64,000 nt of DNA. Origin: Escherichia coli (GTDB lineage Bacteria; Pseudomonadota; Gammaproteobacteria; Enterobacterales; Enterobacteriaceae). Below, one piece after another: positions 54,719 to 56,608 of the stretch. The DNA is taken from the NCBI RefSeq assembly GCF_030013595.1, contig NZ_CP122768.1, one strand, 5' to 3'. The first letter of the stretch is position 1. Every line of letters begins with the position of its first letter. The notes beneath the pieces were generated by a model. That model was given only the letters and a program-made list of their open reading frames with translations. It searched no databases and had not been told where the DNA came from. Both the position numbers and the translations under genes were made by a program.

Positions 54719-56608
54719 ATGGCTGAATTCGAAACCACTTTTGCAGATCTGGGCCTGAAGGCTCCTATCCTTGAAGCCCTTAACGATCTGGGTTACGAAA
54801 AACCATCTCCAATTCAGGCAGAGTGTATTCCACATCTGCTGAATGGCCGCGACGTCCTGGGTATGGCCCAGACGGGGAGCGGAAAAACTGCAGCATTCTC
54901 TTTACCTCTGCTGCAGAATCTTGATCCTGAGCTGAAAGCACCACAGATTCTGGTGTTGGCACCGACCCGCGAACTGGCGGTACAGGTTGCTGAGGCAATG
55001 ACGGATTTCTCTAAACACATGCGCGGCGTAAACGTGGTTGCCCTGTACGGCGGCCAGCGTTATGACGTGCAATTACGCGCCCTGCGTCAGGGGCCGCAGA
55101 TCGTTGTCGGTACTCCGGGCCGTCTGCTGGATCACCTGAAACGTGGCACTCTGGACCTTTCTAAACTGAGCGGTCTGGTTCTGGATGAAGCTGACGAAAT
55201 GCTGCGCATGGGCTTCATCGAAGACGTTGAAACTATTATGGCGCAGATCCCGGAAGGTCATCAGACCGCTCTGTTCTCTGCAACCATGCCGGAAGCGATT
55301 CGTCGCATAACCCGCCGCTTTATGAAAGAGCCGCAGGAAGTGCGCATTCAGTCCAGCGTGACTACCCGTCCTGACATCAGCCAGAGCTACTGGACCGTCT
55401 GGGGTATGCGTAAAAACGAAGCACTGGTACGTTTCCTGGAAGCGGAAGATTTTGATGCGGCGATTATCTTCGTTCGTACCAAAAACGCGACTCTGGAAGT
55501 GGCTGAAGCTCTTGAGCGTAACGGCTACAACAGCGCCGCGCTGAACGGTGACATGAACCAGGCGCTGCGTGAACAGACTCTGGAACGCCTGAAAGACGGT
55601 CGTCTGGACATCCTGATTGCGACCGACGTTGCGGCCCGTGGCCTGGACGTTGAGCGTATCAGCCTGGTGGTTAACTACGATATCCCGATGGATTCTGAGT
55701 CTTACGTTCACCGTATCGGTCGTACCGGTCGTGCGGGTCGTGCTGGCCGCGCGCTGCTGTTCGTTGAGAACCGCGAGCGTCGTCTGCTGCGCAACATTGA
55801 ACGTACTATGAAGCTGACTATTCCGGAAGTAGAACTGCCGAACGCAGAACTGCTGGGCAAACGCCGTCTGGAAAAATTCGCCGCTAAAGTACAGCAGCAG
55901 CTGGAAAGCAGCGATCTGGATCAATACCGCGCACTGCTGAGCAAAATTCAGCCGACGGCAGAAGGTGAAGAGCTGGATCTCGAAACTCTGGCCGCCGCAC
56001 TGCTGAAAATGGCACAGGGTGAACGTACTCTGATTGTTCCGCCAGATGCGCCGATGCGTCCGAAACGTGAATTCCGTGACCGTGATGACCGTGGTCCGCG
56101 CGATCGTAACGACCGTGGCCCGCGTGGTGACCGTGAAGATCGTCCGCGTCGTGAACGTCGTGATGTTGGCGATATGCAGCTGTACCGCATTGAAGTGGGC
56201 CGCGATGATGGTGTTGAAGTTCGTCATATCGTTGGCGCGATTGCTAACGAAGGTGACATCAGCAGCCGTTACATCGGTAACATCAAGCTGTTTGCTTCTC
56301 ACTCCACCATCGAACTGCCGAAAGGTATGCCGGGTGAAGTACTGCAACACTTTACGCGCACTCGCATTCTCAACAAGCCGATGAACATGCAGTTACTGGG
56401 CGATGCACAGCCGCATACTGGCGGTGAGCGTCGTGGCGGTGGTCGTGGTTTCAGTGGCGAACGTCGTGAAGGCGGTCGTAACTTCAGCGGTGAACGCCGT
56501 GAAGGTGGTCGTGGTGATGGTCGTCGTTTTAGCGGCGAACGTCGTGAAGGCCGCGCTCCGCGTCGTGATGACTCTACCGGTCGTCGTCGTTTCGGTGGTG
56601 ATGCGTAA
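54719..56608 (+). CDS. deaD: Cold-shock DEAD-box RNA helicase DeaD/CsdA
   Basis: Canonical 629-aa protein starts [21 protein letters not shown]; Walker [13 protein letters not shown] box; C-terminal RG-rich repeats; track ORF over-extends by 22 codons. Confidence 0.93.

What the first reader, a model, noticed from the sequence alone, without database searches (positions are those of the whole stretch)
56440..56560. Degenerate tandem DNA repeats encoding the RG-rich tail of DeaD, and a similar repeat in infB
About three imperfect copies of a roughly 33-bp unit (…TTCAGYGGYGAACGYCGTGAAGGYGGTCGT…) encode [10 protein letters not shown] repeats in the DeaD C-terminus. A comparable Glu/Ala/Lys-rich repeat occurs in infB around 46870-47040. 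Such in-frame repeats are prone to copy-number variation and assembly collapse.
Basis: seen in the sequence. Interest (0 to 1): 0.12.

Follow-up and report, generated by a model that had tools for sequence, protein, structure and literature searches.

The report
Old in-frame repeat in DeaD tail
The repeat is real but ordinary: an old, imperfect 33-base in-frame repeat that encodes the already catalogued arginine/glycine-rich disordered tail of the E. coli cold-shock RNA helicase DeaD, with a unit number fixed across about 5,400 genomes.

Summary
Window 54719-56608 (+) is deaD/csdA. Its last ~64 codons hold a degenerate 33-nt (11-codon) in-frame repeat. Two tandem units encode [10 protein letters not shown] at 56450 and 56483, preceded by a weaker unit at 56417. 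A fourth unit, FSGERREG at 56528, follows a 12-nt spacer. The region is Pfam DeaD_C (PF12343), so it is already known.

Units differ mainly at synonymous third positions, at about the rate codon usage alone predicts. This marks an old duplication kept at the peptide level, not a young unstable DNA repeat.

Among 5,425 complete E. coli genomes I found no gain or loss of a whole 33-nt unit. About 3% carry a +12-nt (EGGR) allele. Single genomes carry +15 nt and -132 nt. All three are in frame, and the +15 and -132 events sit at 8-bp microhomologies. Between genera of Enterobacterales the tail ranges from 48 to 99 aa with 1-5 units.

The infB remark is also right and stronger. Seven 24-nt units encode REAxEQAK, and rare whole-unit variants occur (-4, -1, +1, +2 units).

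Assembly collapse is implausible because the longest exact repeats are 18 and 14 bp.

The likely function is a flexible, mixed-charge, non-specific RNA-tethering and self-association module. That function is inferred, not tested here. Interest is low.

The parts
54719..56608 (+). deaD/csdA coding sequence (629 aa plus stop), a cold-shock DEAD-box RNA helicase
   Evidence: ORF, with the MAEFETT start at 54719. NCBIfam NF008642 scores 1397.6 bits against a cut-off of 989. Pfam finds DEAD, Helicase_C, DeaD_dimer, DbpA and DeaD_C. The matching region is annotated deaD in about 5,400 RefSeq E. coli genomes.
56420..56605 (+). Region encoding the disordered C-terminal tail (aa 568-629; Pfam DeaD_C PF12343)
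   Evidence: PF12343 scores 45.7 bits against a cut-off of 23.3, over aa 568-629. Composition is 30% R, 30% G, 11% E, with net charge +8. No PDB entry covers the tail: 5gju, 5gi4 and 5b88 together end at about aa 564.
56417..56449 (+). Unit 0, degenerate: [11 protein letters not shown]
   Evidence: In-register 11-codon unit, 61-76% DNA identity to units 1 and 2. The core matches at 56423.
56450..56482 (+). Unit 1: [11 protein letters not shown] ([11 protein letters not shown] in K-12)
Evidence: Codon 56453-56455 is AGT (Ser) in the window and GGT (Gly) in K-12.
56483..56515 (+). Unit 2: [11 protein letters not shown]
Evidence: It differs from unit 1 within [10 protein letters not shown] only at four synonymous third positions.
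56516..56527 (+). 12-nt spacer GATGGTCGTCGT (DGRR) that breaks the 33-nt register
   Evidence: Sequence. Core spacing is 45 nt instead of 33.
56528..56560 (+). Unit 3: FSGERREG, then diverged (RAP)
   Evidence: It shares the longest exact repeat of the tail with unit 1: 18 bp, GGCGAACGTCGTGAAGGC, 78 bp apart. The unit is orthologously conserved as [11 protein letters not shown] in Klebsiella and others.
56651..56675 (+). deaD intrinsic-terminator-like hairpin followed by a T run
   Evidence: 9-bp stem with 6 GC pairs, followed by TTTTTTGT.
46565..49237 (+). infB (IF2, 890 aa)
   Evidence: TIGR00487 scores 987.9 bits. Pfam finds IF2_N, IF2_assoc, GTP_EFTU and IF-2.
46868..47035 (+). infB array of seven 24-nt (8-aa) units, consensus R-E-A-x-E-Q-A-K/R (IF2 aa ~102-157)
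   Evidence: TRF. In-frame layout and shuffle test, 0.68 versus 0.36, 0 of 2000. Natural unit-number variants exist in E. coli.
47117..47200 (+). Second short infB repeat (EEEARRK / EEARR units; periods 24 and 21)
   Evidence: TRF rows 47117-47166 and 47153-47200. Peptides listed.

Best explanation
The feature is the coding sequence of the intrinsically disordered, mixed-charge Arg/Gly-rich C-terminal tail of the cold-shock DEAD-box RNA helicase DeaD (CsdA).

Origin (shown from sequence). The tail arose by ancient tandem duplication of an 11-codon (33-nt) unit, F-[S/G]-G-E-R-R-E-G-G-R-x. Selection has since preserved the peptide while synonymous sites drifted, so the DNA repeat is now only ~70-80% identical.

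DNA behaviour (shown by comparison). The tract behaves as ordinary coding DNA. Unit number is fixed within E. coli. Rare in-frame slippage-type indels arise at short direct repeats. Units are gained and lost only on the time scale that separates genera.

Protein function (inferred, with literature support, not tested here). The tail follows the RRM-like RNA-binding domain. It most likely acts as a flexible polycationic tether that binds RNA non-specifically. With the RD/RE-rich linker before the RNA-binding domain, it probably also promotes multivalent self-association and condensate formation of the dimeric helicase on ribosomal and mRNA substrates in the cold.

The infB tract is the analogous case in IF2: an 8-aa charged repeat in the N-terminal region. 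Its units are shorter and more regular, and it does show rare whole-unit slippage.
For: Identity of the gene and tail.

Repeat anatomy and significance.

Old duplication kept at the peptide level:
- Units 1 and 2 encode the same 10 residues but share only 6 of 10 codons, against 5.0 expected from codon usage alone.
- All four differences within [10 protein letters not shown] are third-position synonymous changes.
- The same pattern holds in Klebsiella and two metagenomic Enterobacterales loci.
- The last unit, [11 protein letters not shown], is orthologously conserved across genera.

Stability within the species:
- 5,423 of 5,426 genomes hold a near full-length match.
- No +/-33-nt allele was found.
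- The +12-nt allele is 100% identical over 223 bp in all 40 listed carriers, including strains 042 and PCN033, which fits descent rather than recurrent mutation.
- The +15-nt allele is a perfect tandem duplication of TGGCGGTGAGCGTCG, bounded by the 8-bp repeat TGGCGGTG.
- The -132-nt allele joins two GCGTCGTG microhomologies.

Turnover between genera: tails of 48-99 aa with 1-5 GERR units. Outside Enterobacterales the tail stays basic but lacks the unit.

Disorder: the Pfam family name, and absence of the tail from all DeaD PDB entries.

Function, from the literature:
- CsdA consists of core + dimerisation domain + RNA-binding domain + C-terminal tail, and full-length protein binds RNA best (PMC11850223).
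- Full-length CsdA tends to aggregate, whereas residues 1-443 are soluble (PMC3814787).
- Basic C-terminal extensions of RhlB, Mss116p and CYT-19 bind RNA non-specifically (PMC3814787).
- Purified DeaD phase-separates and forms condensates in cells (PMC12758526).
Against: No experiment seen here assigns RNA tethering or condensate formation to residues 565-629 specifically. The cited work used larger truncations or full-length protein.

PMC11850223 reports that a CsdA construct with core, dimerisation domain and RRM but without the C-terminal tail still shows increased ATPase and unwinding compared with the dimeric core. The tail is therefore not essential for catalysis in vitro.

One natural E. 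coli genome (FXCREC035) lacks all the units (-44 aa). Either the tail is dispensable under some conditions or that record is an assembly or mutation oddity.

Confidence: 0.85

Rival explanations
1. The tract is a hypermutable in-frame repeat (a contingency-type locus). Its unit number changes often between strains, and assemblers collapse it.
For: In-frame indels do exist in the tail within E. coli: +12, +15 and -132 nt. Tail length differs between genera. Many database fragments of this region are frameshifted.
Against: No whole-unit (33-nt) gain or loss was found in 5,425 complete genomes. About 96-97% share one length. The common variant looks inherited, being 100% identical among the listed carriers. 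Units are only 67-79% identical, and the longest exact repeat is 18 bp. That is too short and too diverged for efficient slippage or for k-mer collapse. The array is under 150 bp.
Confidence: 0.04
2. There is no true duplication. The apparent periodicity is a by-product of extreme Arg/Gly/Glu composition and biased codon usage in a low-complexity tail.
For: Codon-shuffled tails already give 42% self-identity at offset 33. The observed excess is modest, 0.516.
Against: Only 13 of 2000 shuffles reach the observed value. The 8-residue peptide FSGERREG occurs three times, and the 10-residue [10 protein letters not shown] twice in exact register. The same unit structure is conserved in Klebsiella, Salmonella-like, Yersinia-like and other tails.
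Confidence: 0.03
3. The tail is mainly a regulatory or protein-interaction module rather than an RNA tether. Candidate roles are auto-inhibition of the helicase core, or docking to RNase E, ribosomal particles or RraA-like regulators.
For: Other E. coli DEAD-box C-terminal extensions bind protein partners; the RhlB extension binds RraA (PMC3814787). The alternating -++- charge pattern could pair with acidic or basic partners.
Against: No partner is known for residues 565-629 in the material read. The sequence turns over quickly between genera while its composition is kept. That pattern is typical of non-specific electrostatic function, not of a specific docking motif.
Confidence: 0.12
4. The repeat reflects a second coding or structural layer. 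Candidates are the off-frame ORFs through the tail (56403-56618 +, 71 aa; 56299-56631 -, 110 aa) or an RNA element in the deaD 3' end.
For: Both ORFs are open across the repeat.
Against: Variation among strains and among units falls on third positions of the deaD frame. The off-frame products are monotonous Val- or Pro/Ser/Arg-rich strings. Runs of CGT, GGT and GAA codons contain no stop triplets in those frames, which explains the open frames. Rfam finds nothing in the tail. Database proteins in the +1 frame are frameshifted deaD fragments.
Confidence: 0.01

Closest known systems
Pfam PF12343 DeaD_C (DeaD helicase C-terminal disordered region) in E. coli K-12 DeaD/CsdA
   Same: The window's tail matches the family over its full length: profile positions 1-62 of 62, 45.7 bits. 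The protein is the DeaD equivalog. The K-12 tail differs by one residue, Gly instead of Ser in unit 1.
   Different: Nothing of substance. The window carries the Ser allele. A minority of E. coli carry +4 aa, +5 aa or -44 aa alleles.
RGG/RG (GAR) boxes of eukaryotic RNA-binding proteins and DEAD-box helicases (DDX5/Dbp2, and from memory Ded1/DDX3, LAF-1, DDX4)
   Same: Both are Arg/Gly-rich, repetitive, disordered extensions flanking a DEAD-box core. They are thought to bind RNA non-specifically and to promote condensates (own knowledge; PMC6669924 listed; DeaD phase separation in PMC12758526).
   Different: The formal motif definitions are not met: no tri-RGG, di-RGG or tri-RG, and only one di-RG. 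The unit is mixed-charge (E-R-R-E-G-G-R) with a Phe per unit. There is no evidence of homology, and arginine methylation is not known in E. coli.
Basic C-terminal extensions of other bacterial DEAD-box helicases (RhlB, RhlE, SrmB)
   Same: They are unstructured, positively charged tails after the helicase core. They contribute to RNA binding and ATPase stimulation, and in RhlE to phase separation (PMC3814787; PMC11260450).
   Different: The sequences differ and lack the 11-residue repeat. In DeaD the tail follows extra folded domains, the dimerisation domain and the DbpA-type RNA-binding domain.
Charged repeat in the N-terminal region of enterobacterial IF2 (infB)
   Same: It is an in-frame, imperfect, short-unit repeat encoding a charged low-complexity segment of a translation-related protein in the same operon neighbourhood.
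   Different: The unit is 24 nt (8 aa), rich in Glu/Ala/Lys/Arg. By composition it looks helix-forming rather than Gly-rich and disordered; that is inference. It shows whole-unit copy-number variants within E. coli at -4, -1, +1 and +2 units, which deaD does not.

Membership tests
DeaD/CsdA (NCBIfam NF008642, PRK11634 equivalog) | Whole-protein score above the curated cut-off of 989 bits | tested here: met
   1397.6 bits, aligned 1-629 to profile positions 1-628 of 628.
DeaD/CsdA (NCBIfam NF008642, PRK11634 equivalog) | Domain order: DEAD, Helicase_C, dimerisation domain, DbpA-type RNA-binding domain, disordered tail | tested here: met
   Pfam hits at aa 30-196, 232-340, 374-443, 489-558 and 568-629. 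PDB entries 5gju, 5gi4 and 5b88 of DeaD match the folded parts.
DeaD/CsdA (NCBIfam NF008642, PRK11634 equivalog) | Conserved chromosomal neighbourhood nlpI - deaD - mtr | tested here: met
   The ORF at 53655-54539 occupies the position of the gene annotated nlpI in E. coli records, and the ORF at 57473-58717 the position of mtr. An IS200 element is inserted between deaD and mtr in the window.
Pfam PF12343 DeaD_C | Score at or above the gathering threshold of 23.3 bits | tested here: met
   45.7 bits, E = 8.9e-12, aa 568-629 over profile positions 1-62 of 62.
RGG/RG motif (tri-RGG, di-RGG, tri-RG, di-RG with spacers of 0-4 residues; definition recalled from memory, Thandapani et al. 2013) | At least two RGG or three RG within spacers of 0-4 residues | tested here: not met
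   The regex scan of the 64-aa tail finds one RGG, three RG, no tri-RGG, di-RGG or tri-RG, and a single di-RG (RGGGRG).
Contingency / phase-variable simple sequence repeat | Near-perfect short units whose number changes often between closely related strains | tested here: not met
   Units are 33 nt and only 67-79% identical. No unit-number variant was found in 5,425 E. coli genomes.
Contingency / phase-variable simple sequence repeat | Length changes switch the reading frame or promoter spacing | tested here: not met
   The unit and all observed indels (+12, +15, -132 nt) are multiples of three and keep the frame.
Intrinsically disordered region | No stable fold, shown experimentally or by prediction | not tested
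   Evidence is indirect only: the Pfam family name, the low-complexity composition, and absence from solved DeaD structures. No structure prediction was run.

The most novel reading that the evidence does not exclude
The number and spacing of the [10 protein letters not shown] units might set the valency of DeaD for RNA binding and condensate formation. The natural length alleles found here would then be functional variants that tune cold adaptation or the DeaD-condensate-linked persistence phenotype. These alleles are +4 aa in ~3% of E. coli, +5 aa and -44 aa in single strains, and 1-5 units across Enterobacterales. The alternative is that they are neutral length polymorphisms.
Probability: 0.1. 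Interest if true: 0.35.

Novelty: already known. Interest (0 to 1): 0.08.

Why it matters
It matters little. The tract is the known disordered tail of a well-studied helicase, and its repeat structure is already captured by a Pfam family.

There are three modest practical points:
- The deaD tail is not an assembly hazard and not a useful typing marker within E. coli.
- A small set of natural in-frame length alleles exists (+4, +5 and -44 aa). These could serve as ready-made variants for testing what the tail does in RNA binding and condensate formation.
- The infB 24-nt array, not deaD, shows true unit-number polymorphism within the species.

Tried and rejected
1. Identity bands from the plain E. 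coli searches could not count large indels. BLAST splits such matches into two high-identity pieces, as it did for H51 and H172. I therefore searched with designed alleles carrying one 33-nt unit deleted or duplicated. None was found.

2. The same approach worked for infB. It showed spans 24 nt shorter and 24 or 48 nt longer than wild type. Exact counts remain approximate because at most 10-60 rows are listed.

3. The protein search with the C-terminal 155 aa returned mostly fragments. Many were frameshifted into the +1 frame (VVKAVV... strings). I used only in-frame tails and treat the frameshifted ones as sequencing or assembly errors or pseudogenes, not as biology.

4. The representative search showed that the unit is confined to close relatives. 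It added no new function.

5. Two papers were not held: Awano 2007 (PMC1952031) and Hondele 2019 (PMC7617057). What I say about them rests on my own knowledge or on citing papers. Searches for literature on the infB repeat and on bacterial RGG tails found nothing relevant.

6. I considered off-frame ORFs and an RNA element in the tail and rejected both.

7. I considered concerted evolution between units. It is not supported, because the units are as diverged at synonymous sites as codon usage alone predicts.

Full report
**What is at the coordinates**

The window carries an ORF on the + strand ending at 56608. Its biological start is the ATG at 54719 (MAEFETT...), giving 629 aa. The ORF scores 1397.6 bits against the NCBIfam DeaD equivalog NF008642, whose cut-off is 989. 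Pfam finds the full DeaD architecture: DEAD (aa 30-196), Helicase_C (232-340), DeaD_dimer (374-443), DbpA RNA-binding domain (489-558) and DeaD_C, 'DeaD helicase C-terminal disordered region' (568-629; 45.7 bits, cut-off 23.3). The same stretch is annotated deaD in essentially every complete E. coli genome in RefSeq: 5,425 of 5,426 match, and K-12 is 98.6% identical. The neighbours match the E. coli order nlpI - deaD - mtr.

**The repeat is real**

- Tandem Repeats Finder gives 56421-56515, period 33, 2.9 copies, 74% matches, no indels, score 113.
- An 18-nt core encoding G-E-R-R-(E/G)-G occurs at 56423, 56456, 56489 and 56534, and nowhere else. The chance expectation is 0.05 matches.
- In frame the tail reads [64 protein letters not shown].
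- This amounts to a degenerate leading unit, two clean tandem 11-codon units, a 12-nt spacer, and a fourth unit conserved over its first eight codons.
- Against codon shuffles that keep composition and codon usage, offset-33 identity is 0.516 versus 0.419 +/- 0.037, with 13 of 2000 shuffles as high. The periodicity is therefore significant, but it sits on a strongly biased background.

**Age of the repeat**

Units 1 and 2 encode the same ten residues but share only 6 of 10 codons. Independent draws from the local codon usage would give 5.0. All four differences inside [10 protein letters not shown] are synonymous third-position changes. The same holds for the units in a Klebsiella contig and two metagenomic enterobacterial contigs. 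The last unit ([11 protein letters not shown]) is recognisably orthologous across genera. So this is an old duplication. The peptide is under selection and the synonymous sites have largely randomised. It is not a recently expanded DNA repeat, and I see no sign of concerted evolution.

**Copy number within E. coli**

- With the 211-nt tail as query, 5,423 genomes hold a full-length match, and 166 fall in the 90-95% identity band.
- Those 166 correspond to a +12-nt allele (GAAGGTGGTCGT, adding EGGR to unit 1). It was first seen in H39.
- Searching with that allele finds 161 genomes at 99% or better and 26 at 95-99%. All 40 listed carriers, including strains 042 and PCN033, are 100% identical over 223 bp. 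This suggests inheritance by descent; that step is inference.
- Strain 116333 has a perfect 15-nt tandem duplication (GGERR) bounded by the 8-bp repeat TGGCGGTG.
- Strain FXCREC035 has a 132-nt deletion (-44 aa) that removes every unit and joins two GCGTCGTG microhomologies.
- To look for whole-unit changes I searched with synthetic alleles carrying one unit deleted (248 nt) or duplicated (314 nt). In both searches every top-ranked record was a two-piece match spanning the wild-type 281 bp. No record had the variant length. A true variant would have been a single piece with higher coverage times identity and would have ranked first.
- So unit number is fixed within the species. The indels that do occur are sub-unit or multi-unit slippage or deletion events, all in frame.

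**Copy number between genera**

In-frame tails recovered from the protein database range from 48 to 99 aa and carry one to five G[ED]RR units. Klebsiella has an extra [11 protein letters not shown] unit and a duplicated APRRDD segment. Yersinia-like and Serratia-like tails are more diverged. One metagenomic tail (L011) carries the same EGGR insertion as the E. coli minority allele. Among representatives at 50% identity from all of sequence space, DbpA-domain helicases outside the close relatives still end in basic K/R/S/G-rich tails but lack the unit. Of 140 representatives, 111 have no G[ED]R[RK] motif. The pattern of conserved composition with rapidly changing sequence and length is the usual signature of a disordered, electrostatically acting segment.

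**Assembly collapse**

The longest exact internal repeats are 18 bp in the deaD tail (unit 1 versus unit 3, 78 bp apart) and 14 bp in infB. The whole deaD array is under 150 bp. Neither k-mer graphs with k of 21 or more nor reads of ordinary length would collapse it. The many frameshifted fragments in the protein database are single-base indel errors or pseudogenes reading into the stop-free +1 frame. They are not collapsed repeats.

**What the tail does**

- The tail is 30% Arg, 30% Gly and 11% Glu, has net charge +8, and has a regular -++- pattern with one Phe per unit.
- It is absent from all solved DeaD structures, which cover aa 6-210, 218-445 and 481-564.
- CsdA is a stable dimer with core, dimerisation domain, RNA-binding domain and C-terminal tail. 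The RNA-binding domain is the main RNA anchor, full-length protein binds best, and a construct without the tail is still active (PMC11850223, summarising Xu et al. 2017).
- Full-length CsdA tends to aggregate, whereas residues 1-443 are soluble. Basic C-terminal extensions of related helicases bind RNA non-specifically (PMC3814787).
- Purified DeaD phase-separates in a salt-dependent way and forms dynamic foci in cells (PMC12758526).
- From memory, Hondele et al. 2019 reported condensates for E. coli DeaD. That paper was not available here.
- My best reading is that the tail is a flexible polycationic RNA tether and a multivalent self-association module. This is inferred. No source read here tested residues 565-629 alone.

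**Comparison with RGG boxes**

The resemblance to eukaryotic RGG/RG domains is functional and compositional only. The formal motif patterns are not met: one RGG, and no tri-RGG, di-RGG or tri-RG. It works like an RG-rich tail but should not be filed as an RGG box.

**infB**

The gene at 46565-49237 is IF2 (TIGR00487, 987.9 bits). Codons ~102-157 form seven consecutive 8-aa units ([48 protein letters not shown]). Offset-24 identity is 0.68 against 0.36 in codon shuffles, with 0 of 2000 as high. A second short EEARR-type repeat lies at 47117-47200.

Here whole-unit variation does exist within E. coli:
- XJ5.2 and others have +1 unit.
- Two records have +2 units, with spans of 369 versus 321 nt.
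- About ten records are one unit shorter.
- Strain N68 lacks four units, -32 aa.
- These are rare: in the plain infB search 5,218 of 5,425 genomes are at least 99% identical to the window and only 45 fall below 95%.

**Verdict**

The feature is already known (Pfam DeaD_C; K-12 deaD). The suggested instability is at most weak for deaD and modest for infB. The assembly concern does not apply. Interest is low. The only mildly useful by-product is the catalogue of natural in-frame length alleles.

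Noticed in passing
window 56680-57400 (tnpA 56824-57282 +; Rfam hit 56691-56814 +): An IS200-type element sits between the deaD terminator and mtr. Its product matches Pfam Y1_Tnp (7.9e-37) and NCBIfam transpos_IS200. The left end matches Rfam STnc490, an Hfq-binding RNA, at 146 bits. K-12 and most E. coli lack it; mtr follows deaD directly there. Only 18 of 5,425 genomes have an IS200C at this site, and those copies are just 96.5% identical to the window's. This suggests a different IS200 variant or an independent insertion at the same spot.
   Followed up: partly
window 46868-47035 and E. coli loci L007, L008: The infB 24-nt array shows true unit-number polymorphism within E. 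coli, at -4, -1, +1 and +2 units, giving IF2 proteins of different length (for example 898 aa and 858 aa versus 890 aa). The array lies upstream of the internal IF2-beta start region; that placement is from my own knowledge.
   Followed up: partly
window ~56051-56164 (DeaD aa 445-482): A second mixed-charge low-complexity segment, [36 protein letters not shown], links the dimerisation domain to the RNA-binding domain. It contains a small DRGPR duplication. TRF reports a weak period-9 signal just upstream of it, at 56040-56063. The RNA-binding domain is therefore flanked on both sides by charged disordered segments.
   Followed up: no
window 56403-56618 (+) and 56299-56631 (-): Long off-frame ORFs run through the tail: a 71-aa Val-rich one and a 110-aa Pro/Ser/Arg-rich one. 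They are open only because CGT, GGT and GAA codon runs lack stops in those frames. Many short 'proteins' in the public collection are frameshifted deaD tails reading into the +1 frame.
   Followed up: partly
window 56453-56455: The window has AGT (Ser) where K-12 and most listed E. coli have GGT (Gly). Unit 1 is therefore [11 protein letters not shown] here and [11 protein letters not shown] in K-12. Strain 2012C-4502 is 100% identical over the 211-nt tail.
   Followed up: partly
window 54646-54726 (by analogy with L006 747-827): In annotated E. coli records the small gene yrbN (26 codons) overlaps the deaD start by 8 nt. The upstream in-frame TTG-started extension of the deaD ORF listed (54653) is not the annotated start.
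   Followed up: no
window as a whole: The window looks like E. coli but is not identical to any complete RefSeq genome over the pieces tested. The best 451-nt match around the deaD 3' end is 98.9-99.1% identical. The infB piece is 100% identical to several strains. The source strain was not identified.
   Followed up: no
proteins P0132, P0011, P0059: Short database fragments show further deleted tails: [21 protein letters not shown]..., a 60-aa tail and a 48-aa tail. This suggests other multi-unit deletions occur in Enterobacterales. They are single unverified fragments.
   Followed up: no
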